A DNA stretch of 64,000 nt from the NCBI GenBank assembly GCA_000004985.1, contig GG738922.1; one strand, 5' to 3'. The notes under the pieces were generated by a model, which had not been told where the DNA came from, ran no database searches, and saw only the letters and a list, made by a program, of their open reading frames with translations. Position numbers and translations under genes: made by a program. This DNA is from Naegleria gruberi (lineage: Eukaryota). This document shows, one piece after another, positions 14,101 through 64,000 of the stretch (the stretch's first letter is position 1; each line of letters opens with the position of its first letter).

Positions 14101-17100
14101 TTATTTCAATTCCACTTCAGCCTTTTTCTGTTTAAACGATAATACTCCAATGAAATAAGCATGATTAAGAGGCGCACATTTAAGTTCATTTCTCACAGCA
14201 GAACATCCTGGATAAATGTATAATTTTCCTTGATATTTGCTATTGTCTATCTTGACATAAAAGACTTTCTTCTTATCTGCCAATACACGAGCAGCCTTGT
14301 CAATTTTAGAGTTCAATGTATTGGCTCCAAAAGGATCAGTCTTGTTATATATATTGAATACAACTCCTTTCATTTCGAAATCCCAATCAGCCATACCTTT
14401 GATGACAAGGTTGCTATCAAATACACCTCTAAAAGATTTCTCTGTCAAACCCTCTATTGTAATATTTTCAAAATCGTATGATTTCCCATCAGATATGTGC
14501 ACTATTTCTGCGTAAGGTAAATGGTTTGAAGTGGAATCAGAAGAATCAGCAGAGAGAGGGGAATTTTGAGGAATTGGTTCGGTCTTTACAGTATTGTTCA
14601 CTGTGTGGCCTCCTAATCTTCTTTCACTTCTGTATGTTTCTGGGATGGTAGAATAGGATGCAGGAGAAGGGTTATCCAATCTAGGAGTGTATCTTCCGTC
14701 ATTATATCTACTATTGTTGCTTGAGCCTCTATAACTGTCAGTACGATCTGACCTACTGCTACTACCAGAATAACGAGAATAACTTCCACGATCATCATAC
14801 CCACCTCTTCCATATGAGCTATGATATGGAGACTTTGAGTCTCCATAATCTCTTGGTGAGGGTCTGTAGGAGCTGTGTGAAGTGTAAGGTGATCTGGAGT
14901 CTCTAGATTCTCTTGGTGAAGATCTATATGATGAAGATGGTGAAGGCTTTGAGGTTGCATAATTAGATTCACTTGGAGAACGAGGAGCTGTGTACGATGA
15001 TCCGCTATATCTGTTTGAGTTTCTATTCATTTCACTTGGAGAACGAGGGGCTGTATATGATTGCTTGGAAGATACATAGCTCGATGAAGATCTGTTTGAA
15101 GAATTATTGGATGAATTGAAATTGGACCCCATTTCACTTGGAGAAAGTGGTGCAACATAGACAGATGAGGAGGGTTTTTGTGTATTGTAACTGTTAAATC
15201 TAGTTGAACTTGTATGTGTATTACCACTACTGCTAAATCTAGTTGAGCTTGCATTCATTTCACTAGGGGAATGAGGAGCTGTATATGAAGATCCACTGTA
15301 TCTAGTGGTTGAATTGCTTGGAGTTGAATTGGTTATTTCANNNNNNNNNNNNNNNNNNNNNNNNNNNNNNNNNNNNNNNNNNNNNNNNNNNNNNNNNNNN
15401 NNNNNNNNNNNNNNNNNNNNNNNNNNNNNNNNNNNNNNNNNNNNNNNNNNNNNNNNNNNNNNNNNNNNNNNNNNNNNNNNNNNNNNNNNNNNNNNNNNNN
15501 NNNNNNNNNNNNNNNNNNNNNNNNNNNNNNNNNNNNNNNNNNNNNNNNNNNNNNNNNNNNNNNNNNNNNNNNNNNNNNNNNNNNNNNNNNNNNNNNNNNN
15601 NNNNNNNNNNNNNNNNNNNGTTTCAGCTGTTGGTCTATTTGAAGGAGAAACTGGTGGAACCTGAGTATTGCCAGTGTTACCATCACTACTAGAAATGTAT
15701 TCTGTGGAACTAACATTTTGATGTTTTTTCTTATTCTTAGGTTCTTCGAGAGGAACTTCAGATGGATCAATACCTTTTGAGGATAAGAATTTGTTTCTAT
15801 TCTCTAAATATCGTTGCTCCCTATCTTGTTGTGATTTCGTATGTTGCTGCATGAAGGCTGCAATTCCTCCTCCTCCGCCTCTTGATGTGGGAGTAGTTGT
15901 GGAGCTTGGTTTGGTTTCAGTTGTTTTGGTGGATACTGTGGGAGAAACAGTTGTAGCACTAGGTACAATATTTGGTGTTCTTTCCTCCTTGGTTGACTGT
16001 TTAGCTAAAAAACGTTGTTTATCCTCTTCGAACTTGTTCTCCTTATCTTCTTTTGCTTTGGTGTGTTGTTGCATGAAGGCTGCAATTCCTCCTCCTCCAC
16101 CTCTTGATGTGGGAGTAGTTGTGGAACTTGGTTTAGTTTCATTAAGGGGCGAAATATTCTTAAAGGCACGAAAATTGGAGCCCGATTCACTCGGAGAAAG
16201 TGGTGCAACATAGGTCGAGATTTTTTGTGTATTGTCACTGTTAAATCTAGTTGAAATTGCATTCATTTCACTTGGAGAGCGAGGAGCTGTATATGAAGAT
16301 CCACTGTATTTAGTGGCTGAATTGCTTGAAGTTGAACTGGTTGTTTCACTTGGAGAACGTGGTACAACATACGAAGATGATGAAGATTGTGCACTGTTAA
16401 ATATTTTTGAAGTTGTGTCTATTTGACTTGGAGGGGATACGTTCCTAAAATTGGCAGATGGAGTATTTTCTGATGGAGATCTTGGTGCTGTATATGAAGA
16501 TGAACTAGAGGGTACATTGATGGTATTAAATCTATTCTGAGTGAAACTGCTCGACGAATTGGTACCACTATTTGAAATTGGTGGATTAAATATTTCATTA
16601 TTTCTAATTGTGGTATGTGGAGATGATTTTCTGGCTTCACTTGGAGAAATTGGAGCTACAAAGGGAGTATTGGATCTAAAGCTAGTTGGCTTTGATCCCA
16701 TTTCAGTTGGGGAGCGTGGAGGGATGTATTGCTGATTATTAACAACTGGTCCTTGAGTATCTACAATATTATGGGCTGAGGCAACTGTTTTACCAACCTC
16801 ACTTGGAGAAATAGGAGCTGTAAATAAAGGGGTGGTGTGTGTTGGTGGATTAGTAATGGTGCCTTGGCTGAATTGTGTTAAATATCGGGGATCCCTTAAT
16901 CTAGGATCGCTAGGGAATGTATTTAATCTTGGGTCAACTGGTACAAATGTAGAACTTCCTGGTGGCAACTTGAACTGTGGTGAGGTGGTTTGAGTTATTG
17001 GATTAGTTACTAAGGAAGAGCCAATAGTGGTTGATGTATTAGAAACTCCATTGTTGACACCAGTAGTAAATGCGTTATTACCAAAGGAAGAATTGATTGT

Positions 17101-18066
17101 TGAAGAATTAGAAGGAGGCAAACTCATTGATGAATTGGTTGGAGTTGGGTTTGAGGTTGGAGGAATTTGTTGACCATTGATAGAGTTTGGTGGAATTTTA
17201 ACTGCTTCCACAGCATTTGATCTATTAAGCCTTGGAATACTGATTGTAGATAAGGGTCTTTGTTCTGCAGGTTGATCACTTTGTGTCTTTGCTGCTGTAA
17301 CAATGTTCCTCTTTGGAATTTTGAAAGGAGGCTGTTTCACACTACCAACCTCTGTTTGTGGCTTTTTCTTAACCTTAGAAAGAGGATTGGAATCTTCCTT
17401 TGGAATATTTACAAGATTAGGCTGCTGTGAAGAGCTACCAGTAGTTGTGTCTGTCTTTGTCAACTTGATCTTTTTTGAATCTTGATTTTCTTCTTCCGAA
17501 GTAGAGTCCTCATCATCCATTACAAGCTTTTTACGTTTCTTTACCTCTGAATTAGCCTTCTTCTTGGATTCTTTTACTTCCTTCTTTTTAGTTTCCTTCC
17601 TTGTTTCCTTTTGTTTTGCATTTTGTTTTTTCCTCTGTGGCTCCTTTTTAGATGATGAAGAAGAAGAAGCTTGTGGTTGATGATGTTGAGGAAATTTGGG
17701 ACTAACATTGTCTGTACTACTACTTCCGATATCGTCTGTGGATGACCTTTCGGGACTTGACAATGGAGAATCACTAGTTGTACTTTCCTGTTCCGATTTA
17801 ATTGAGTTGATGCAGGTTGCAATTTCAGACTGCCTTGCTTCAAACTCTTCCACAATAGTCATCACACCATTTAGTGTTACATTTTCATAGGATTCCCACG
17901 TACAATCATCGAATGGATAGTTGGCCCATTTGACGAGATAAAGTGGTTTACCTCTCTCGTAACGTTTTGCTAGAATAAATTCCGCATCATAGATGCATTC
18001 ATCTTCTTCTACCATTTTACACAAAATTCTGTGGTCAATTTTGATGTACGGAAGCCTATTTGTCAA
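14101..18066 (-). CDS. chromodomain protein with long S/T/P-rich repeat region (Y-x-APRSPSE motif repeats) and a C-terminal globular domain; CDS interrupted by an assembly gap
   Basis: The N-terminus YDAEFILAKRYERGKPLYLVKWANYPFDDCTWESYENV is a canonical chromodomain. The middle part is a basic KKE-rich stretch followed by at least 12 copies of SYTAPRSPSE / YVAPLSPSE-type motifs. A duplicated block KPSSTTTPTSRGGGGGIAAFMQQHTK sits near the 280-N gap at 15340-15619. The C-terminal ~140 aa (ADWDFEMKGVVFNIY...LYIYPGCSAVRNEL) form a non-repetitive domain I could not identify. Confidence 0.8.
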   Translation of the reverse strand: MTNRLPYIKIDHRILCKMVEEDECIYDAEFILAKRYERGKPLYLVKWANYPFDDCTWESYENVTLNGVMTIVEEFEARQSEIATCINSIKSEQESTTSDSPLSSPERSSTDDIGSSSTDNVSPKFPQHHQPQASSSSSSKKEPQRKKQNAKQKETRKETKKKEVKESKKKANSEVKKRKKLVMDDEDSTSEEENQDSKKIKLTKTDTTTGSSSQQPNLVNIPKEDSNPLSKVKKKPQTEVGSVKQPPFKIPKRNIVTAAKTQSDQPAEQRPLSTISIPRLNRSNAVEAVKIPPNSINGQQIPPTSNPTPTNSSMSLPPSNSSTINSSFGNNAFTTGVNNGVSNTSTTIGSSLVTNPITQTTSPQFKLPPGSSTFVPVDPRLNTFPSDPRLRDPRYLTQFSQGTITNPPTHTTPLFTAPISPSEVGKTVASAHNIVDTQGPVVNNQQYIPPRSPTEMGSKPTSFRSNTPFVAPISPSEARKSSPHTTIRNNEIFNPPISNSGTNSSSSFTQNRFNTINVPSSSSSYTAPRSPSENTPSANFRNVSPPSQIDTTSKIFNSAQSSSSSYVVPRSPSETTSSTSSNSATKYSGSSYTAPRSPSEMNAISTRFNSDNTQKISTYVAPLSPSESGSNFRAFKNISPLNETKPSSTTTPTSRGGGGGIAAFMQQHTKAKEDKENKFEEDKQRFLAKQSTKEERTPNIVPSATTVSPTVSTKTTETKPSSTTTPTSRGGGGGIAAFMQQHTKSQQDREQRYLENRNKFLSSKGIDPSEVPLEEPKNKKKHQNVSSTEYISSSDGNTGNTQVPPVSPSNRPTAEXXXXXXXXXXXXXXXXXXXXXXXXXXXXXXXXXXXXXXXXXXXXXXXXXXXXXXXXXXXXXXXXXXXXXXXXXXXXXXXXXXXXXXXXXXXXXXEITNSTPSNSTTRYSGSSYTAPHSPSEMNASSTRFSSSGNTHTSSTRFNSYNTQKPSSSVYVAPLSPSEMGSNFNSSNNSSNRSSSSYVSSKQSYTAPRSPSEMNRNSNRYSGSSYTAPRSPSESNYATSKPSPSSSYRSSPRESRDSRSPYTSHSSYRPSPRDYGDSKSPYHSSYGRGGYDDRGSYSRYSGSSSRSDRTDSYRGSSNNSRYNDGRYTPRLDNPSPASYSTIPETYRSERRLGGHTVNNTVKTEPIPQNSPLSADSSDSTSNHLPYAEIVHISDGKSYDFENITIEGLTEKSFRGVFDSNLVIKGMADWDFEMKGVVFNIYNKTDPFGANTLNSKIDKAARVLADKKKVFYVKIDNSKYQGKLYIYPGCSAVRNELKCAPLNHAYFIGVLSFKQKKAEVELK
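15340..15619. other. assembly gap (280 N) inside chromodomain gene repeat region
   Basis: Run of N. Confidence 0.95.
15843..16155. repeat. intragenic tandem duplication (~78-bp unit repeated ~235 bp apart) inside the chromodomain gene
   Basis: The stretch gttgctgcatgaaggctgcaattcctcctcctcc.cctcttgatgtgggagtagttgtgga.cttggttt occurs at about 15843-15920 and again at about 16078-16155. It encodes the duplicated peptide block and lies adjacent to the N gap, so the repeat array is probably collapsed in the assembly. Confidence 0.6.
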
Positions 18067-32850: not shown

Positions 32851-34083
32851 TTAAACTTGGTTTTGTACAGGTGTTTCTTCATCTTTTGGAGGTGATGGCG
32901 TACTTTCGTCTGTTGTTGAAGGACTGGCCAATTCTGCAACTGTACTCCTGGCATCATCCCTTGGACTGCCTTCAGATTCTTCAATTCTGTCCTTTCTATC
33001 AACGAGGGCAGCTGGTAGTATCTTTCTTGTGGCCATAATGATTTCTTCCTTTGTTTCTTTCAAATCCAATTCATCCAAAGGTCCATAAATAAATGTCAAG
33101 GCAACAGCAAAGAAAAAGATGCTAATTCTCTGCAATGTAATACCAGCAATATAAATTTCATATTGAACCAATGTTAAGATGGCCATAATGACAATACTAC
33201 CAGTAATTCCTCCAAACACCAATTGTAATGCATTCAACAAATTCAATTGTCTGCATGCCTTTCTTCTTTGGAGTGGAACATTTTCTTGTTCACCTCCTAA
33301 TTTTCCAGTGAGTGAAACACCAACCACAATGTTAATAATTCCAAAGAAGAAGATCAAAAACCAATAGCCAAGAGCTAATACTGCATCAGCATAGTAACGA
33401 TTGTAACCAATACTGGAAGCTGTTGCAGCCTTTACACCTGGCATCAAAGAAGTCAAAGATGTGATCATGATAGTAGCAATGTGAAGAGGGGCAATAATTA
33501 AAAGTCCAATAGCACTAATGATAGCTGTCCATTTAACAAACTTGCCAAATCGTTGATTCCTAATGGCAATCTTCTTTGGGACGGTTTTCCCTAAACTTTC
33601 CTGTTGATTTTCAACAACTCTCATCCACCACTGTGACTTATCAAAGTAAACCTTATACAGAATCCTTGTAATTGTCAAGAAGCAAAAGACACATAGAATG
33701 ACAGTCAGATTACCACATGAATATTGAATAGCAGCAAAAGGATCCATGCATTCCTTTTGATTACCTATCAGAACACAAACTGAATACATGATACCTGAAG
33801 TTATTGATAAAATTTGTAAACATGACATGAGCACCACTAGTCCATAAAGACATCTCTTGATGAAAACCATTGTTCTCCATCTAATAATTAATAAAATAGC
33901 AACTACAAAACCTAGAACCAAAAAAGGAGGTAGAGTTATCGAGTAGACAACCAATGCACCTGTAAACCTGTTGATAATTTTGCTGTCATTACTGTATGTC
34001 AATGCTTGATGAATTGTATACGTTGGGTCATCAATGATAGAGTAGAATGGATTGTCTTGACTATTCATTGCATAACTCTCCAT
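32851..34083 (-). CDS. seven-transmembrane receptor-like membrane protein with acidic S/T/P-rich C-terminal tail
   Basis: 410-aa ORF with seven predicted hydrophobic helices, judged by eye. The cytoplasmic tail is rich in D, E, S, T and P. No family-specific motif was recognised. Confidence 0.6.
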   Translation of the reverse strand: MESYAMNSQDNPFYSIIDDPTYTIHQALTYSNDSKIINRFTGALVVYSITLPPFLVLGFVVAILLIIRWRTMVFIKRCLYGLVVLMSCLQILSITSGIMYSVCVLIGNQKECMDPFAAIQYSCGNLTVILCVFCFLTITRILYKVYFDKSQWWMRVVENQQESLGKTVPKKIAIRNQRFGKFVKWTAIISAIGLLIIAPLHIATIMITSLTSLMPGVKAATASSIGYNRYYADAVLALGYWFLIFFFGIINIVVGVSLTGKLGGEQENVPLQRRKACRQLNLLNALQLVFGGITGSIVIMAILTLVQYEIYIAGITLQRISIFFFAVALTFIYGPLDELDLKETKEEIIMATRKILPAALVDRKDRIEESEGSPRDDARSTVAELASPSTTDESTPSPPKDEETPVQNQV

Positions 34084-54835: not shown

Positions 54836-56440
54836 TTAAGGTAAGGCCGTTATGCCTGTGAGCGCTGAAGTTTCTGCCAACATCAACTTGTTTTGTTTGG
54901 CAAAGAGAAACATTTCCTCTCTTGAAATTCTCCAACAAACTCTTGGAAGATCACACTTGGTGGCCAACAGCAAAAATTGGGTTGCTTGAATTCCGGTGCC
55001 TCCGTTCTTAATGATTGATTGTATTTGTGGAAAAACATTTTCCTTTGTGTCCGTAACTGAAAAGCAAATTACTAAGCTGGTTGACTTATAGTTAAGCGAA
55101 ACTTTAGGAGAGTAAACACCCGTGTGGTAAATGTTTTGGTAGTAAATATTGACCTTCTCATGAGAATTGGAATGGAAAGTATTGTATGCGAATTGATGAA
55201 GTAAACTGTTAGCTCCTGAATCGTTTCCTATTCCTACACAAATGATGTAGCTATACCGGCTCTGGAATGTTTTGTGATTTCTGGCCAATTTGAAATCTTC
55301 CAATGGGTATTTTGTCTGGATTTCTTTTGGTATTTCTATACAACTGGAGAGTGTATAAGTTCTAACAAAAAAACAGTAACGAGCCAAATAGATAAGAAGT
55401 GGTCGCACAGAGTCAATATAATCCATTTCTAGCAAGGATTGTAGGACTAGGAGGGCATTATCAATTCCCCTGGTAGACTCCTTAATGACATGTGCACAAT
55501 AATTTGAGAGAATGTCAAATCCAACCATGTCGCAATAAAGCATCAACTCAATAGCAATGCTGTCATTTTGAATATTTCCAGTCATGATAAAGAGCAGAAT
55601 AGTTTCCAACAAGGAGGAGCTAACATCCATTGGTACAATTCTCTGAGAGCATTCTATCATTCCACTCGAGAGCAATGTGTTGAAAAAAGGAGATCTATAC
55701 CTAATAATGTCATTGGTAATTTGCAATACTTTTCCAGGATTGGAATCAGATATTTCATCAACATTAGAAGTGAAATAAACCAATGATTCTGAGGGCTTAT
55801 CGTCTACAGAGCCATTTAACCACTTTTGAATGCAATTCTCCCATGATCCAATGAATTCATCAATGCAAAATGTTGGATTGAAATTTCGTCCACATCCACT
55901 CAAGTAAGATCCGAACTCTTTGGAAATTGTCAAATCAAAAAACTTGGAAATTAGTAATAAATCATAAACATAAAATTCAGAATCAAAAATGTATGGACTA
56001 ATCTCCATTCCTCCTTCCATTCTTCCATACTCAAAGTAATCTATTATCAAATAAGGACAATAGAGTCCCACCACTAATAGATCAATAACATTCTCCAGAT
56101 ATTTTTGTTTCTCTTTGATATTGTATAGATATACCAATCCTTTGAACTGTTTCTTGGCTATTTCGAATGTAAATTCCAATTCCTCTCCCTCCTTCACTTG
56201 CTTGCTAATCAATTTACTGAATGTGCTTACAATTTCCGTATGTATGTGTTTCGTAATTGAAATCTTTGTACCATCCACAATAAAGTGAAAGGTAAAGCAT
56301 TCACTTGAAAAATTTTGCAATTCAGCCTTTTCCTCTTCTATTATTGTTGTGTTTCTATTTAAATTACTTATCCTCTTTTCGTTTCGTATAATAATTGGTC
56401 CAAGCCAATCAATTTCTCTCTTATCCATACGTTTGGACAT
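54836..56440 (-). CDS. BTB/POZ-domain protein with C-terminal degenerate Ras-superfamily GTPase-like domain
   Basis: 534-aa ORF. The central BTB-like region reads VLQITNDIIRYRSPFFNTLLSSGMIECSQRIVPMDVSSSLLETILLFIMTGNI...ELMLYCDMVGFDILSNYCAHVI. The C-terminal ~150 aa align to small-GTPase blocks but with degraded motifs: G1 VGIGNDSGAN instead of GxxxxGKS/T, G4 TKCD instead of NKxD, and G5 ETSAL instead of SAK. The protein ends 8 aa after G5. Confidence 0.65.
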   Translation of the reverse strand: MSKRMDKREIDWLGPIIIRNEKRISNLNRNTTIIEEEKAELQNFSSECFTFHFIVDGTKISITKHIHTEIVSTFSKLISKQVKEGEELEFTFEIAKKQFKGLVYLYNIKEKQKYLENVIDLLVVGLYCPYLIIDYFEYGRMEGGMEISPYIFDSEFYVYDLLLISKFFDLTISKEFGSYLSGCGRNFNPTFCIDEFIGSWENCIQKWLNGSVDDKPSESLVYFTSNVDEISDSNPGKVLQITNDIIRYRSPFFNTLLSSGMIECSQRIVPMDVSSSLLETILLFIMTGNIQNDSIAIELMLYCDMVGFDILSNYCAHVIKESTRGIDNALLVLQSLLEMDYIDSVRPLLIYLARYCFFVRTYTLSSCIEIPKEIQTKYPLEDFKLARNHKTFQSRYSYIICVGIGNDSGANSLLHQFAYNTFHSNSHEKVNIYYQNIYHTGVYSPKVSLNYKSTSLVICFSVTDTKENVFPQIQSIIKNGGTGIQATQFLLLATKCDLPRVCWRISREEMFLFAKQNKLMLAETSALTGITALP

Positions 56441-57070: not shown

Positions 57071-59507
57071 TCAAACTGTTCTTGCTGTATCGTCTGACAA
57101 GTCTTTCACAATGTTATCATCAATGTTGTCCTCATTGTTGTGGTCATTGTCAACTAAATTTTCATTTTGGGTGATGTTATTAGTTGATAAAGTTGTTGGC
57201 TGGGTTGGTGGTTGATTTCCATCTATTTGAATAAACCTTGCCATCTTTGCATTTTCCACAAAAATAGCTTGGGAAAGGTTAATAATTGCTGGTGTGGAGG
57301 TTTTCAAGTCGTCAAAGTATTTTGCTGCTTTTCTTGTTTCCTTTTCAACTCCAGATACTGGCATAATTCCATCGTTATCCGTGGCAACTGTTAAGCAATT
57401 AATATCTACAGGAATTGACAAATCGTGGAAATCAAAGAGTAAATATTCATTACTTGTTGGACACCATTCAAAGAACACCTTCTTGTCTTTCATAATAATT
57501 TCTCTATAATTTTTCATTCTGTTAAATACTTCTTCATTATAAAAAGGTCCAGATCCTTGTTCCAACATAAATCCAACACCATGACCCAATCTCAATTTTG
57601 CCTTCATATTTTTGCAAATTTCAATAATTGACCAAAATGTAATGTCCATATGCTTCAAGAAGAATGTTTTATCCTCATCTATAAAAGTGTTCTCTCCACA
57701 GTGATATCTTAATCCTAATAATTTTCCTGTTTTCTTATTGTAAAGTTCAGCTATTCTCCAAAAACATTTCAAAACAAAAACGCATGGAGCAAAATACTTT
57801 TCATCTCCAACCCAATCAAATCCAACAACTGCACCAACATCAATTACCTTCTCTATTTTAAGCAATTTGAAGAGCTTATCGATTTGTGCCTCAAGTTCAT
57901 TGCCATCATTTACAATGCAAAGTTGTTCCAATGTTTTTGTGAAAATTTGTTCTGAGAAAGCTTGTTTTAAATACTTTTGACTGCAACAGAAATCGAATTT
58001 TTCAGTATCTGACATACCTTCCTTAAAGTGACATGTTATTTCTATTCATTGCGGCCAAAAAGTAATAATAAAATTGTTTGCTTTCATCATTATGCTTAAT
58101 TTCTAAGTGATTATCAACGTGGACTAATTTAATATCTTCATCGGTTAGAAGAGATCTGTACCTGTTCCAAAAAGTCTCTAATGTTGAGGGTTTCAAATAC
58201 TTTGAGATTGAATCTGTTTTCAAATCTTTCAGACTAACACTATATTCAACATACTCAACTCCTTCTTTGTAGTAGTTATAAATGGTATGCAGTAAGAGTA
58301 TGGATAATATTTCAGGATACATAAAATACATGCTATCTTTCAAAATGAATCTTTGTGGATAAAAATCTGGTGTGAATTTGACATTATGAACACCTACAAG
58401 TTTCATTTCAAATGAAAGCAATAAAGTGTTGTAAAGAACTCGCTTTGTAGGGTCAGGCTTTCTTTTTTCATCTGCATCTAACTTTGCTATAATTTGTGCA
58501 TTTGTAAAACCATATTTCAATTCGTATTTTTCTTCTCTTTGGTTGAATACATAGTAATTTTTTGGTTTTGCGCCAATTACTTTACTAATATTAGCAATTT
58601 GTTCCTTTTTGGGTAATGTGAATAAATTGAAAGCTCTGCTCAAATCTTCTAAACTGTACACAACATCATTGGTATGAACTGCTTTTAAGGAAAGCACTTC
58701 TGATTCCAAAGTAAGGTTGTCTATGTCTGCATTGGTGAACAAACTTGATTTAGTAAGTGTAGAACTGATGTCAAGCGGAACGATTGGCAAAGCTTGCACA
58801 AGATTTGGGATATACTTTTTCATGATTACTTCAATCCAGAAATCAGCATTACCCATACCCATTAAATGAGTGTGGAGTTCTGAAAGCTGGTATGAATTAC
58901 CAATAGGTATGTTTTGATCTGTCACTTTTTGAGGTGGTTGATAATATGAAGGATCGTTTGTTGCTTTAACTGAATGTTCCTCTAGTACAACAGGAGGAAT
59001 ATAATCTCTTTCATTGAACTCTTCATCATAGCTTGTATAAATCCATTTGGAGTCTCCTACTTCAACCAATAAGCCTTTTTCACCTGGTGTTGGTTGGAAG
59101 CAGACAGAAATTTCTTCATCATAATGTGTGAATAAATCTATAGCTGAATTCTTTTTAATTGAAATGTAATCTAAAGGGAGTGAAGAATATTTGCTCCACC
59201 TATCCTTAGCGTTAGAGTCAGCAATAGGAGGTACTTTTTTAAGATAAAGTTTGGCATTTGGAAGTTTCTGTTGTAATTCTAAAACATGTTCCTTAGAGAA
59301 AGATGTTGCACTGTATTTGAGGGAGAGAAAATTAAAGAATGGCTCTGGTGGTGCAGAAGAAAGACTCATAGCTCCTCGCAGCGTTAAGTTTCTAAGAACA
59401 GGAGTATTGGTTTTTGAAATTCCATTCAAAAATGTTCCATGAATATTAGGATTTTCTTTACCAAGGGTTTGGTACCTGTCATTATCTCTCTGGTTTGGGA
59501 TCCGCAC
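57071..59507 (-). CDS. divergent AMP/adenosine deaminase family protein (A_deaminase fold), encoded as two ORFs in different frames 7 nt apart (probable frameshift or sequencing error); 5' end overlaps a repeat
   Basis: ORF 58023..59507 carries the N-terminal metal motif LSELHTHLMGMGNADFWIEVIMK, comparable to DTHIHAxxCMNQKHLLRFIK of AMP deaminases. ORF 57071..58015 carries LRYHCGENTF, RLGHGVG, EWCPTSNEYLLF and TVATDNDG, in the same order and spacing as the PHCGE, GHG, SPLSNN and STDDP blocks of AMP deaminase. Deleting one T from the CTTT run at the junction fuses the two frames (..MSLKEGMSDTEK..). Confidence 0.6.
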
Positions 59508-59586
59508 ATGCTCAGATCTAAAAGCTTATCGATGTGATGTATAATAGACTTATCGACATGTGGTTAAAACAGGAAGGTGTAACTTT
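59468..59586. repeat. direct repeat copy 1 (~120 bp; restriction-site-dense)
   Basis: tttggtacctgtcattatctctctggtttgggatccgcacatgctcagatctaaaagcttatcgatgtgatgtataatagac...ggaaggtgtaacttt is about 93% identical to 59791..59915. Confidence 0.6.
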
Positions 59587-59636
59587 NNNNNNNNNNNNNN
59601 NNNNNNNNNNNNNNNNNNNNNNNNNNNNNNNNNNNN
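59587..59636. other. assembly gap (50 N) between direct repeat copy 1 and retroelement fragment
   Basis: Run of N. Confidence 0.95.
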
Positions 59637-59800
59637 GGAATTGTCTTCTAGGCTTCTCCATAATCTTTCACGAAGATATTCAGTTTTCTTGCAGTTGAAA
59701 ATGGCGTGTTGAGTGTTCTCCTCTTCCTTGCAATCTTTTATAGGGCATCCATTACCTGGTGTAAAGATGTTGTTTGTTGGGAGACTGGGTTTTGGTACCT
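59637..59800 (-). mobile_element. 3'-terminal fragment of a non-LTR (LINE-like) retrotransposon ORF2 (CCHC zinc knuckle), 5'-truncated
   Basis: The minus-strand open frame reads ..LPTNNIFTPGNGCPIKDCKEEENTQHAIFNCKKTEYLRERLWRSLEDNS. It has the C-x4-C-x7-H-x4-C spacing with an E..TxH core that is characteristic of the C-terminal Cys-His motif of non-LTR retrotransposon ORF2 proteins. The frame is cut off by a stop upstream and by the N gap downstream. Confidence 0.45.
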
Positions 59801-59915
59801 GTCATTATCTCTCTGGTTTGGGATCCGCACATGCTCAGGCTCAGATCTTATAGCTTATCGATGTGATGTATAATAGACTGATCTACATGTGGTAAAAACA
59901 GGAAGGTGTAACTTT
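59791..59915. repeat. direct repeat copy 2 (~125 bp)
   Basis: Same sequence as 59468..59586 apart from a 6-bp insertion (ggctca) and a few substitutions. Confidence 0.6.
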
Positions 59916-61171
59916 CTATATTTATTGAGATAATCAATAAAGTTTGGAATTTGTCAGAAAAACTTGCCCTCTCGCCAAGAATTCATTTTGCCATATTTGG
60001 GATCTGGACTTTTATAGTCTGGAAATAGGCTAGATGTGTTCCATATTCAATAATCTATATGAAAAAAAGAAGAAATAAAATTAACTCTTGAATTGAGTAT
60101 ATAACGACTATTGATATTACTATATATGGTATTTGGATAATAACTTTCACAGAAATCATTAATGAAACATAAATTGTACTAAAGTGTGTTAGAAACATAA
60201 TGGTGGTGAAACTGATCAATAACTCGTCGAAATGACTGAGATGGAATGTAAACTATGGTCCAAATGTCATGTATTTGTAACTAAACAGTGTCAACTCCGC
60301 CAAAGTGCTTTAAACTAGATTGATATCATCAAAAACACTTCTAGACATCACATATGCCATAAAGAATGAGTTTCAATATTTGATATTGTGAATAGACTCT
60401 GTTGGATACCATCCCTATAAATATAACGAGATGAAAAGTGTCAACATTCAATTTCACATACATGTTACTATGAAGAGTCGTCATACCATCATCTAGATAG
60501 GTAGTATTTCAAGTTTCAGTGGAATTGACAGTCTAGATATTGAGATGTGTATACTAAGGTTGAAGAAGTGTCACCTTCACTGATTACTGACATGAATATA
60601 ATAATTGAATATATGATTCTTGTATAATTAATTCATTATTCAATGATTTTGATATGATGGTAAAATTTAATTTTGAAATTAAGATTCTTCCCTATTGATT
60701 ACCTTAGATTTTCCTTAGTTGACTTGAAGATATTGAGCCATCAATTTGAAACTTTCTCAGATTGTTCTCCTCATCTAGGGAAGTGTATTCATATTTGATA
60801 CTTGTATGATATTTTGTAAAATGAATGAGATGGATTATATTCAATGTGTTGAAATATGACAATTTGACAGATTGTTATTATTATCATACTGAATTCAATT
60901 CTAAAACATTAAAATTGATTCCAGATGTATATCAGCGTGATTAAATGTATCTGGTAAAGTTACATGACGGTTGGAGGTACTTTCGCTGAGATAGAGCGTA
61001 CACTTGGATATAATCACTCTTGACATTGAACATTTACTGATTGACTGAATGAAAATATCATGAATTGTTTCTAAACTTGTATAGATGTATATAAATGGTG
61101 TACAGAATGTGTATTATCAATTCTAGACTAATTACATATAAAATAAGTGATTTGGAGCATAATCTTTGATT

Positions 61172-61489
61172 TTATGTCAAAGTTCTATAGNNNNNNNNNN
61201 NNNNNNNNNNNNNNNNNNNNNNNNNNNNNNNNNNNNNNNNTTTATCTAAAACCATTTTACTTTCTTCGAAATTTTCTTTTGTTACCTGAAAACAATCTAA
61301 AAATTTGAACACTGCTAACTTTTCTTCCTTGTTGGTACAAAGTTTGATATAACGTTCCATTTTGTATTGTATAACTGTATCCAAATGTTGTTTGTTTGTC
61401 TTGCAAGTGATGTACCATGGTAGGAGATGTTTTGCACCAATAAACCTTGCAATCTTAAACACAACTTCGGAAGAAAGTGTTGTTTTCAT
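61172..61489 (-). pseudogene. F-box family gene fragment truncated by assembly gap
   Basis: The ORF reads MKTTLSSEVVFKIARFIGAKHLLPWYITCKTNKQHL.., which follows the F-box pattern of the 4408 and 27193 genes. It runs into the 50-N gap at 61191-61240 and there is no continuation beyond. Confidence 0.35.
61191..61240. other. assembly gap (50 N)
   Basis: Run of N. Confidence 0.95.
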
Positions 61490-62412: not shown

Positions 62413-62446
62413 TTTTGGGGTTTGGGTTTGGGTATGGCGAAAACCC
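62413..62446 (+). repeat. interstitial telomere-like repeat (3 units) with an adjacent inverted unit
   Basis: ttttggggtttgggtttgggtatgg is followed 4 nt later by aaaccc. It lies 1.2 kb proximal to the terminal array. Confidence 0.5.
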
Positions 62447-63344: not shown

Positions 63345-63677
63345 TAGTATAGGTCAGTTGACAAGTTGAATAGTAAATTTCTTGAAATGATACCAAAGTA
63401 TTTGAAATTGATATATATTGTTATTAACATGATTTATAAGGTGATTTATTGATTTGAAATGATTTTGAAATGTTTTCATTGATATTCTAATTGTCTAATC
63501 TATTATATGAAATTAACTTATATAAGTCATTATAATGATGTAATATTATGTTATAATATGATTATATATTCAATTTGGAGTATATTGATATATAATATAT
63601 TGATTTATAATGAGTATTTATTGAGATAATAAATTAAGATGAATAAAAGTCAAAATATTGGGTCTGACCTTAGTCGT

Positions 63678-64000
63678 GGGTTTGGGTTTGGGTTTGGGTT
63701 TGGGTTTGGGTTTGGGTTTGGGTTTGGGTTTGGGTTTGGGTTTGGGTTTGGGTTTGGGTTTGGGTTTGGGTTTGGGTTTGGGTTTGGGTTTGGGTTTGGG
63801 TTTGGGTTTGGGTTTGGGTTTGGGTTTGGGTTGGGTTTTGGGTTTGGGTTTGGGTTTGGGTTTGGGTTTGGGTTTGGGTTTGGGTTTGGGTTTGGGTTTG
63901 GGTTTGGGTTTGGGTTTGGGTTTGGGTTTGGGTTTGGGTTTGGGTTTGGGTTTGGGTTTGGGTTTGGGTTTGGGTTTGGGTTTGGGTTTGGGTTTGGGTT
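63678..64000 (+). repeat. terminal telomere-like array (GGGTTT)n, >=53 units, running to the window end
   Basis: Perfect hexamer tandem array with a single variant junction (gggtt|gggtttt at ~63829-63841). The G-rich strand runs 5'->3' toward the end, as expected for a right-hand chromosome terminus. Confidence 0.85.

What the first reader, a model, noticed from the sequence alone, without database searches (positions are those of the whole stretch)
59468..59915. Non-LTR retroelement 3' remnant bracketed by ~120-bp direct repeats that are unusually dense in 6-bp restriction palindromes
Between the two repeat copies the minus strand encodes ..CPIKDCKEEENTQHAIFNCKKTEYLRERLW... This C-x4-C-x7-H-x4-C knuckle with E..TxH core is the hallmark C-terminus of non-LTR retrotransposon ORF2 proteins, so a 5'-truncated LINE-like insertion sits here. 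Each flanking repeat contains GGTACC, GGATCC, AGATCT, AAGCTT and ATCGAT (only 4 of 5 in copy 2) within about 65 bp. Five different six-cutter palindromes this close together look polylinker-like. This raises the alternative that a cloning-vector or insertion-cassette fragment, or a scaffolding artefact, is present, given the 50-N gap between the copies. However, the two copies differ by an indel and several substitutions, which argues for a natural repeat, for example a 3'-UTR module of the element. The called N-terminus (MRIPNQRDNDRYQ) of the adjacent deaminase-like ORF is encoded by the repeat itself and is therefore suspect.
Basis: partly seen in the sequence, partly recalled or inferred. 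Interest (0 to 1): 0.55.

Follow-up and report, generated by a model that had tools for sequence, protein, structure and literature searches.

The report
Truncated Naegleria LINE at subtelomeric gap
This is a short dead fragment of a LINE-type jumping gene in the amoeba Naegleria gruberi, 4 kb from a chromosome end and interrupted by an assembly gap, and the restriction-site-rich repeats around it are ordinary host DNA from the insertion site, not cloning-vector sequence.

Summary
Two direct repeats, R1 (59465-59586) and R2 (59788-59915), differ by 6 substitutions and a 6-bp indel. They flank a 50-N gap and 151 bp (59637-59787, minus strand) that encode a Cys/His knuckle.

The window is Naegleria gruberi NEG-M, not a dictyostelid, and it ends in the (TTTGGG)n telomere. 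The 151 bp are 99.3% identical to a retroelement whose longer copies carry a reverse transcriptase, an RNase H and this knuckle. The RT's best solved relatives are all R2 and LINE-1 ORF2 proteins. Homology starts exactly at the R2 edge, in mid-ORF, so this is a 5'-truncated non-LTR copy.

R is not contiguous element sequence and has no plasmid match. Its density of 6-bp palindromes is within chance: 74% of simulated 64-kb sequences contain an equal cluster.

R is most likely host target DNA present on both sides of the insertion. It could be a genuine target-site duplication of at least 122 bp. It could instead be one target sequence assembled twice from an insertion-bearing and an insertion-free homologue, since R1 abuts the gap. 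I could not decide between these and lean slightly towards assembly doubling.

The GTG-started N-terminus of the neighbouring deaminase-like ORF is not credible. Overall this is ordinary and of low interest.

The parts
59465..59586 (.). Direct repeat copy R1 (122 bp). It continues without a break into the 5' end of the deaminase-like ORF on its left, and its right end is cut by the assembly gap, so its true extent is unknown.
59587..59636 (.). 50-N scaffold gap (contig break). It hides either the 3' part of the retroelement copy (at least 249 nt of ORF plus the 3' UTR and tail, judged from the 348-aa relative) or a mis-join between two haplotypes.
59637..59787 (-). 5'-truncated fragment of a Naegleria gruberi non-LTR retrotransposon ORF2. 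It covers the Cys/His knuckle region (residues 217-266 of XP_002672050.1), and the frame is open up to the gap.
   Evidence: P0004: E=1.8e-26, 98% aa identity; L001: 99% over 98 nt; L002: 99.3% over 148 nt, with homology starting exactly at 59787
59788..59915 (.). Direct repeat copy R2 (128 bp, with an extra GCTCAG). It is joined to the 5'-truncation point of the retroelement fragment with at most 1 nt of microhomology. It continues rightwards into unique AT-rich DNA.
58023..59464 (-). Neighbouring gene affected by the insertion: the N-terminal half of a divergent adenosine-deaminase-like gene. Homology to the paralogue begins at 59450, only 15 nt from the repeat edge. There is no credible start codon upstream of it.

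Best explanation
A copy of a Naegleria gruberi non-LTR (LINE-type) retrotransposon, whose ORF2 carries RT, RNase H and a Cys/His knuckle, inserted by target-primed reverse transcription into subtelomeric DNA. The site is about 3.9 kb from the (TTTGGG)n telomere and 15 nt upstream of the conserved part of a deaminase-like gene, in the same (minus) orientation as that gene.

Reverse transcription stopped early, or the cDNA was joined early, so the copy is 5'-truncated inside ORF2 at 59787. It is dead on arrival and has no function of its own. Its only plausible effect is to separate the deaminase-like gene from its upstream exon or promoter.

The roughly 122-bp repeat is not part of the element. 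It is the host sequence at the insertion site, seen on both sides of the insert. There are two versions of this, which I cannot separate:
- (a) About 45% of the total probability. The insertion is present on only one homologue, with an ordinary short duplication. The assembler stitched the insertion-free allele (deaminase-R, contig ending at 59586) next to the insertion allele (LINE-R-upstream, contig starting at 59637). R is therefore doubled only in the assembly.
- (b) About 35%. Widely staggered nicks produced a genuine target-site duplication of at least 122 bp.

Shown: the identity and class of the element, the truncation point, the fact that R is not contiguous element sequence, the organism and the telomere. 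Inferred: target-primed reverse transcription as the mechanism, the target origin of R, and the choice between (a) and (b).
For: **Element identity and class**
- The fragment matches P0004 (XP_002672050.1) at 98% amino-acid identity, E=1.8e-26. It was the only non-repetitive hit among 1.84 billion representatives.
- L002:2173-2320 equals window 59787->59640 with 1 mismatch in 148 nt.
- L002 carries RVT_1 at E=7e-24. Its 10 best matches among solved structures are all R2 or LINE-1 ORF2 proteins, E from 7e-12 to 5e-6.
- RNase_H (PF00075) scores E=1.5e-8.
- The relative's ORF stops 83 residues after the knuckle, with no integrase.

**Truncation and target origin of R**
- Homology starts at 59787, in mid-ORF. 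The element's own upstream bases (GCTGCTTTTAAC) differ from R2 (GGTACCAAAACCC).
- The layout R - LINE (5'->3') - [gap] - R, all in one orientation, is the layout of a target duplication.
- R occurs only twice in the window and has no inverted partner.

**Organism and position**
- 5 of 10 window ORFs are exact N. gruberi NEG-M proteins on one 209,908-bp scaffold.
- The window ends in 54 units of the hexamer (reported as TGGGTT, the same repeat as TTTGGG). TTTGGG is the published candidate telomere repeat of N. gruberi (PMC3622300).

**For version (a), assembly doubling**
- R1 runs right up to the gap, and the contig contains no LINE 3' sequence.
- Five of the 6 substitutions and the indel lie in the 71 nt nearest the contig end.
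- This assembly carries redundant contigs of the same chromosome region: EFC35592.1, on a 7.6-kb contig, is 100% identical to the window gene EFC37111.

**For version (b), real long duplication**
- Target-site duplications of up to several hundred nucleotides are reported for LINE-1 (PMC1291365).
- Contig A ends in ...AACTTT, which would be a suitable primer end for a poly(A)-tailed template (inference).
- The R1/R2 divergence is not significantly greater than that of the LINE fragment (my binomial estimate p~0.13, from the counts).
Against: - The 3' junction of the element is hidden in the gap, so neither a tail nor the second junction of a target duplication can be seen.
- No endonuclease domain and no 5' end of the element family was recovered.
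- Pfam zf-RVT did not match the knuckle at E<=1.
- The genome-wide copy number of R could not be measured, so a low-copy dispersed repeat is not excluded.
- Against version (a): the other three 50-N gaps in the window show no flanking duplication, and a 6-bp tandem indel is not a typical read error.
- Against version (b): 122 bp is far above the usual 5-20 bp. The contig on the R1 side contains no element sequence at all, although the other contig reaches 151 bp into the element.
Confidence: 0.8

Rival explanations
1. R is an independent low-copy repeat, either a subtelomeric repeat family or the end of another mobile element. Alternatively the two copies arose by a segmental or tandem duplication unrelated to the retroelement's integration. 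On this view the LINE fragment merely lies between two copies.
For: - The locus is subtelomeric, where segmental duplications are common (general knowledge).
- R contains telomere-like 8-mers, GGGTTTGG and GGTTTGGG.
- Both copies lose similarity at the same nucleotide, as the terminus of a mobile element would.
- The 5% divergence suggests some age.
Against: - There is no third copy and no inverted partner in 64 kb.
- The point where similarity ends coincides to the base with the start of LINE homology. Insertion-site duplication predicts this, but an independent repeat would need it to be a coincidence.
- Telomere-like 8-mers occur at about 8 other places in the window.
- Rfam and tRNA scans give nothing above noise for R.
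Confidence: 0.12
2. R is a module of the retroelement itself, for example its 3' UTR. R2 would then be the tail of an upstream tandem copy and R1 the tail of the visible copy.
For: - The 3' UTR of the family was not recovered, so direct comparison is impossible.
- R1 lies where the element's 3' end would be, just beyond the gap.
Against: - If R2 were the 3' UTR of an upstream copy, the ORF2 C-terminus (residues 266-348 of P0004) should lie just upstream of it. TBLASTN finds no such match anywhere else in the window.
- The 1.3 kb upstream of R2 is AT-rich and closed in all frames.
- R1 runs seamlessly into the deaminase-like reading frame, and homology to the paralogue begins 15 nt beyond it.
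- R is absent from the 2.4 kb of element sequence recovered.
Confidence: 0.04
3. R is a fragment of a cloning vector, polylinker or insertion cassette, that is, contamination or an engineered sequence.
For: There are five different six-cutter sites in 63 bp. The 12-mer ATCGATAAGCTT (ClaI next to HindIII) also occurs in common polylinkers (my own recollection, not tested).
Against: - The palindrome cluster is within chance for a 64-kb window.
- BLASTN in distant mode against 72,556 plasmid records gives only a 40-bit chance hit at E=1.
- There are no exact matches in the bacterial/archaeal genome, viral or JGI metagenome collections.
- Each copy is joined, within a single contig, to genuine Naegleria sequence: a Naegleria gene on one side and a Naegleria retroelement on the other.
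- The two copies differ at 6 positions and by an indel.
Confidence: 0.01

Closest known systems
Naegleria gruberi 'predicted protein' NAEGRDRAFT_52591 (XP_002672050.1 / EFC39306.1), and the same element on contigs L001 and L002 (run ERR1078381, project PRJEB11402)
   Same: It belongs to the same retroelement family. Identity is 98% at the amino-acid level and 99.3% at the nucleotide level over the whole visible fragment, and the Cys/His knuckle is the same.
   Different: The window copy keeps only 151 bp. It is truncated at residue 217 of that protein and has one private substitution (R to K inside the knuckle). The family has no name in any source I could search.
Non-LTR retrotransposon ORF2 proteins with solved structures: Bombyx R2 (8gh6) and human LINE-1 ORF2p (8c8j, 8sxt, 8uw3)
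   Same: The RT core of the parent element matches these and nothing else in the PDB at E<=1. A C-x-C-x7-H-x4-C knuckle lies downstream of the RT, as in LINE-1 ORF2p (the LINE-1 motif is from my own knowledge).
   Different: - The Naegleria element has an RNase H domain between the RT and the knuckle, which LINE-1 and R2 lack.
- The knuckle spacing is C-x4-C rather than C-x1-3-C.
- The knuckle region itself has no detectable sequence match to any solved chain.
- The clade was not determined.
Long target-site duplications of non-LTR elements. [quoted passage not shown] C. elegans RTE-1 is recalled to make duplications of around 200 bp (my own knowledge, not checked).
   Same: A direct repeat of host DNA brackets a 5'-truncated insert in the correct orientation, and the 5' junction has at most 1 nt of microhomology.
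   Different: The 3' junction is unseen. The copies are only about 95% identical. One copy abuts an assembly gap, so the duplication may not exist on any chromosome.
False segmental duplications in whole-genome shotgun assemblies of heterozygous genomes, where allelic contigs are placed in tandem across a gap (general knowledge; described by Kelley and Salzberg 2010, not read here)
   Same: The duplicate sits at a contig end next to a scaffold gap. Identity is in the mid-90s per cent. The same assembly demonstrably contains redundant contigs of this region.
   Different: The second copy is 151 bp inside its contig rather than at its end. This requires the added assumption of a heterozygous LINE insertion. 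The other gaps in the window show no such duplication.

Membership tests
Non-LTR (LINE) retrotransposon | Reverse transcriptase of the non-LTR type in the element to which the fragment belongs | tested here: met
   L002, which is 99.3% identical to the window fragment, encodes RVT_1 at E=7e-24. All 10 PDB matches at E<=1 are R2 or LINE-1 ORF2 proteins. The RT itself is not present in the window copy.
Non-LTR (LINE) retrotransposon | Cys/His motif (C-x1-3-C-x7-8-H-x4-C, Pfam zf-RVT) downstream of the RT | tested here: inconclusive
   The window reads C-x4-C-x7-H-x4-C, preceded by LPT and followed by W. This resembles the motif by eye. Pfam zf-RVT gave no hit at E<=1 for the fragment, for P0004 or for the L002 C-terminus. 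No solved chain matched either.
Non-LTR (LINE) retrotransposon | 5' truncation of genomic copies at variable points | tested here: met
   Homology to the element begins at 59787, in the middle of ORF2, which corresponds to residue 217 of a C-terminal fragment.
Non-LTR (LINE) retrotransposon | Endonuclease domain (APE-type or restriction-like) | not testable with these tools
   No sequence 5' of the RT core was recoverable.
Non-LTR (LINE) retrotransposon | No LTRs and no integrase after RNase H | tested here: met
   The ORF of P0004 ends 83 residues after the knuckle. Its only Pfam domain is RNase_H. The presence or absence of LTRs could not be examined.
Non-LTR (LINE) retrotransposon | 3' tail (poly(A) or simple repeat) abutting the target | not testable with these tools
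   The 3' end of the copy lies in the 50-N gap at 59587-59636.
Target-site duplication | Direct repeats of host DNA immediately flanking both ends of the insert | tested here: inconclusive
   The 5' junction is exact: R2 ends where the LINE begins. The 3' junction is hidden by the gap. R1 continues seamlessly into host sequence, as expected.
Target-site duplication | Usual length (about 5-20 bp) and near-identity of the two copies | tested here: not met
   The length is at least 122 bp, with 6 substitutions and a 6-bp indel. Such long duplications are known but rare (PMC1291365).
Cloning vector / polylinker | Sequence match to vector or plasmid DNA | tested here: not met
   There is no meaningful match in 72,556 plasmid records or in the prokaryotic genome, viral or metagenome collections. 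UniVec itself was not available.
Cloning vector / polylinker | Density of restriction palindromes beyond what the genome's composition gives | tested here: not met
   74% of Markov-simulated 64-kb sequences contain a cluster of at least 5 G/C-containing 6-bp palindromes in 70 bp, with a mean of 1.41 clusters.

The most novel reading that the evidence does not exclude
The duplication is physically real and typical of the family. On this reading, this RNase H-bearing Naegleria LINE would routinely nick the two target strands more than 100 bp apart, producing very long target-site duplications, and might prefer chromosome ends. That would be an unusual integration geometry for a non-LTR element in a deep-branching eukaryote.
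Probability: 0.08. Interest if true: 0.35.

Novelty: new member of a known kind. Interest (0 to 1): 0.13.

Why it matters
It matters little beyond bookkeeping.
- It identifies an unannotated, truncated copy of an unnamed N. gruberi non-LTR family with RT, RNase H and a Cys/His knuckle.
- It flags a probable assembly problem 4 kb from a telomere in the NEG-M reference.
- It shows that the neighbouring deaminase-like gene, which is absent from the published protein set, has no trustworthy 5' end.
- It removes a contamination worry, because the polylinker-like look is a chance effect.

Only if the 122-bp duplication proves real and recurrent would it say something new about how this LINE family integrates.

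Tried and rejected
**Searches that found nothing**
- A word-indexed homologue search with the 53-aa knuckle peptide gave no candidates. The exhaustive HMMER search was needed. Its second hit, P0005, is a low-complexity tandem-repeat protein and was discarded.
- Exact-protein look-ups of window ORFs, P0004, the deaminase ORF (GTG and ATG starts), its C-terminal half and the plus-strand ORF across the LINE/R2 junction all returned nothing. The aim was an independent assembly of the locus. N. gruberi scaffolds are evidently not in that index.
- Exact-pattern scans for R and for the LINE fragment found nothing in JGI metagenomes. Scans for R found nothing in prokaryotic genomes or viral contigs either.
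- PDB sequence searches with the RNase H/knuckle part gave only weak RNase H hits at E~0.06. Searches with the C-terminal 139 residues gave noise only.
- TBLASTN of the N-terminal part (174 aa, including the unaligned first 70) of the paralogue P0001 against the window found no upstream exon.
- The Cell 2010 genome paper is not held. No paper describing Naegleria non-LTR elements was found.

**Methods that failed**
- AlphaFold2 of P0004 without an alignment gave mean pLDDT 32.7, which is unusable, so no fold search was run.

**Ideas rejected**
- R as a known RNA: Rfam and tRNA scans of the region gave only sub-threshold noise.
- R as one end of a TIR transposon: there is no inverted copy in the window.
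- R as degenerate telomere: telomere-like 8-mers are not rare in the window.
- R2 as a template-switch chimera onto the deaminase mRNA: this would require the chimera to land next to its own source gene.
Full report
**1. What is in the sequence**

The described features exist at the stated coordinates.
- R1 (59465-59586) and R2 (59788-59915) align with 6 substitutions and one 6-bp indel, GCTCAG being doubled in R2. BLASTN gives E=5.7e-48.
- Their 45-nt and 28-nt identical cores occur nowhere else in the window on either strand, even with 3 mismatches allowed.
- A 50-N gap (59587-59636) begins at the base after R1. The true right-hand extent of R1 is therefore unknown.
- Between the gap and R2, the minus strand is open and reads ...SLPTNNIFTPGNGCPIKDCKEEENTQHAIFNCKKTEYLRERLWRSLEDNS.

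**2. The restriction palindromes**

R1 contains GGTACC, GGATCC, AGATCT, AAGCTT, ATCGAT and ACATGT. R2 has lost AAGCTT through a substitution.

The window holds 1006 six-bp palindromes, and 22 places have at least 5 of them in 70 bp, mostly AT-only ones. Restricting the count to G/C-containing palindromes, R1 is the only cluster of at least 5. However, first-order Markov simulations of the window give a mean of 1.41 such clusters, and 74% of simulations have at least one.

The polylinker look is therefore what one expects to find once in any 64 kb of this composition. BLASTN of R against 72,556 plasmid records gave only a 40-bit hit at E=1. Exact scans of the metagenome, prokaryotic genome and viral collections found nothing. 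Each copy is also joined within a single contig to genuine host sequence.

**3. Organism and chromosomal position**

Five of ten long ORFs of the window are exact matches to Naegleria gruberi strain NEG-M proteins. These are EFC37060, EFC37108 (CDC20), EFC37110, EFC37111 and EFC37116 (BTB protein, window 54836-56440). All lie on one 209,908-bp scaffold. The dictyostelid guess is therefore wrong.

The window ends in 54 units of (TTTGGG)n, at 63677-64000, with the G-rich strand running 5'->3' towards the end. TTTGGG is the published candidate telomere repeat of N. gruberi (PMC3622300). The finding thus sits about 3.8-4.2 kb from a chromosome end. Three of the window's five gaps lie in this same terminal stretch.

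**4. What the knuckle fragment is**

The word-indexed search found nothing. An exhaustive HMMER scan of 1.84 billion representatives returned one real hit, P0004, at E=1.8e-26 and 98% identity over residues 217-265. P0004 is N. gruberi XP_002672050.1 / NAEGRDRAFT_52591. It has an RNase H domain (PF00075, E=1.5e-8), followed about 80 residues later by the same knuckle, and it ends 83 residues after it.

Its relatives led to two contigs from run ERR1078381 (project PRJEB11402):
- L001 is a 1740-bp Logan contig.
- L002 is a 2401-bp ENA contig.

L002 encodes, in order, an RT, an RNase H and the knuckle. The RT scores RVT_1 at E=7e-24 and has the motifs KAFDSV, GVKQGDSLSPLIF and YMDD. Against all solved structures, this RT matches only R2 proteins (best 8gh6, 7e-12) and LINE-1 ORF2p (about 2e-6). 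No retroviral or LTR-element RT appears at E<=1.

L002:2173-2320 equals window 59787->59640 with one mismatch in 148 nt. The alignment begins exactly at 59787. Upstream of that point the element reads ...GCTGCTTTTAAC, whereas the window reads ...GGTACCAAAACCC, which is R2.

The 151 bp are therefore a 5'-truncated copy of a non-LTR retrotransposon. The junction has at most 1 nt of microhomology.

There are caveats on membership:
- Pfam zf-RVT never matched the knuckle.
- No solved chain matches that region.
- The endonuclease, ORF1 and the 3' end of the family were not recovered.
- An AlphaFold model of P0004 was useless, with pLDDT 33.

**5. What the repeat is**

*Not contiguous element sequence.* R differs from the element at the junction and is absent from the 2.4 kb of element recovered.

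*Not the 3' UTR of an upstream tandem copy.* The ORF2 C-terminus (P0004 residues 266-348) is found nowhere else in the window. The 1.3 kb upstream of R2 is AT-rich and closed in all frames.

*No inverted partner*, and no Rfam or tRNA identity.

Read on the minus strand, the order is: upstream DNA, R2, LINE (5'-truncated, 5'->3'), gap, R1, deaminase-like gene. R1 continues without a break into the gene. This is the geometry of host target DNA duplicated on either side of an insertion made by target-primed reverse transcription. I take that as the origin of R, at about 0.8.

**6. Is the duplication real or made by the assembly?**

Both readings fit the data.

*For a genuine long target-site duplication:*
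- Such lengths are documented for LINE-1 (PMC1291365).
- The contig ends in ...AACTTT, which would be a plausible primer end for a poly(A) template. A following homopolymer could also explain why the Sanger contig stops there (inference).
- The divergence of R1 from R2 (7 events in 122 bp) is not significantly higher than expected from the LINE fragment's single private change in 151 bp. My binomial estimate from the counts is p~0.13.

*For assembly doubling of a heterozygous insertion:*
- R1 ends exactly at the contig break. That contig holds no LINE 3' sequence, although the opposite contig reaches 151 bp into the LINE.
- Five of the six substitutions and the indel lie in the 71 nt nearest the contig end, where consensus quality is lowest.
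- The NEG-M assembly contains redundant contigs of this same scaffold region. EFC35592.1, on a 7.6-kb contig, is 100% identical to a window gene.
- Duplications of 120 bp are rare a priori, whereas young insertions are often heterozygous (general knowledge).

*Against assembly doubling:* the other three 50-N gaps show no flanking duplication, and a 6-bp tandem indel is not a typical read error.

I put assembly doubling at about 45%, a real long duplication at about 35%, an unrelated repeat or segmental duplication at about 12%, and the remaining ideas at about 5% together. A Nanopore assembly of N. gruberi exists (PMC12695648) and would settle this, but it cannot be queried here.

**7. The neighbouring gene**

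ORF 58023-59507(-) starts mechanically at a GTG inside R1, and the first in-frame ATG is residue 47. Its only close relative is the N. gruberi paralogue NAEGRDRAFT_60100, at 39% identity. The alignment begins at query residue 20 (PNIHG..., base 59450) against subject residue 71. No match to the paralogue's first 70 residues lies upstream.

The MRIPNQRDNDRYQ N-terminus is therefore not credible. Either an upstream exon is spliced in (...GACAG|GTACC inside R could serve as an acceptor; this is inference) or the 5' end has been lost. The insertion point is 15 nt upstream of the conserved region, so the LINE plausibly disrupts this gene on the chromosome that carries it.

The gene is only distantly adenosine-deaminase-like. 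There is no Pfam hit. NCBIfam adenosine deaminase scores E=0.012 for the C-terminal half, and 6.5e-6 for the homologue P0003. No identical protein appeared in the homologue search, so the gene seems to be missing from the published annotation.

**8. Verdict**

This is an ordinary, dead, 5'-truncated LINE copy in a subtelomere, interrupted by an assembly gap and flanked by its own target sequence. There is no vector, no special palindrome content and no new mechanism. Interest is low. The only non-trivial possibility is that this family makes very long target-site duplications. That is unlikely and easily tested.

Noticed in passing
window 63677-64000: The window ends in a telomere array of 54 units of (TTTGGG)n, 98% matches within the array, with one irregular stretch near 63830 (GGGTTGGGTTTTGGG). 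It matches the candidate N. gruberi telomere repeat reported in PMC3622300. This scaffold end is therefore a real chromosome end.
   Followed up: partly
window 62418-62433: There is an interstitial telomere-like 16-mer (GGGTTTGGGTTTGGGT) about 1.25 kb inside the terminal array, in the same orientation. It is possibly a relic of an earlier chromosome end.
   Followed up: no
window 57071-59450 (minus strand): This is a two-ORF, roughly 800-aa, divergent adenosine-deaminase-like gene with motifs SELHTHLMGMG, RYHCGE and TDNDG. It has no Pfam hit and only sub-threshold NCBIfam adenosine-deaminase matches. Its relatives are one N. gruberi paralogue at 39% identity and two ENA proteins at about 30%. 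It appears to be absent from the NEG-M protein set. The two ORFs are in different frames and may be joined by a 52-nt intron (AACAT|GTCACT...TGTTGCAG|T, about 57976-58027) or separated by a frameshift.
   Followed up: partly
window 32851-34083 (minus strand): The gene EFC37111 is duplicated in the NEG-M assembly on a separate 7,598-bp contig (EFC35592.1, partial), with 288 of 288 residues identical. This is an uncollapsed redundant contig of the same chromosome region.
   Followed up: partly
window 15341-15619 and flanks 14968-16830: The only sized gap (279 N) lies inside the 1321-aa ORF 14101-18066(-). It is flanked by internal repeats of 83-87% identity, so this is a repeat-containing coding region that broke the assembly.
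   Followed up: no
L001 1-22: The Logan contig begins with CAGACGTGTGCTCTTCCGATCT, an Illumina adapter remnant identified from my own knowledge. The first called 'gene' on that contig is therefore partly adapter.
   Followed up: partly
L001, L002 (run ERR1078381, PRJEB11402, labelled metagenome): A sample labelled as a metagenome contains this Naegleria retroelement with one mismatch in 148 nt to the NEG-M copy. ENA proteins at least 90% identical to several window genes also exist (P0008, P0014, P0017), though their sample of origin was not checked. N. gruberi or a very close strain appears to be present in that sample.
   Followed up: no
window 59919-59942 and 63615-63638: A 24-nt AT-rich match (92%, E=0.002) links the sequence just right of R2 with the sequence about 40 bp inside the telomere junction. 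It is probably chance.
   Followed up: no
window 61172-61489 (minus strand): A short ORF begins MKTTLSSEVVFKIARFIG..., which looks like an F-box by eye, and runs into the 50-N gap at 61191-61240. It could be a separate small gene or a distant first exon of the deaminase-like gene.
   Followed up: no
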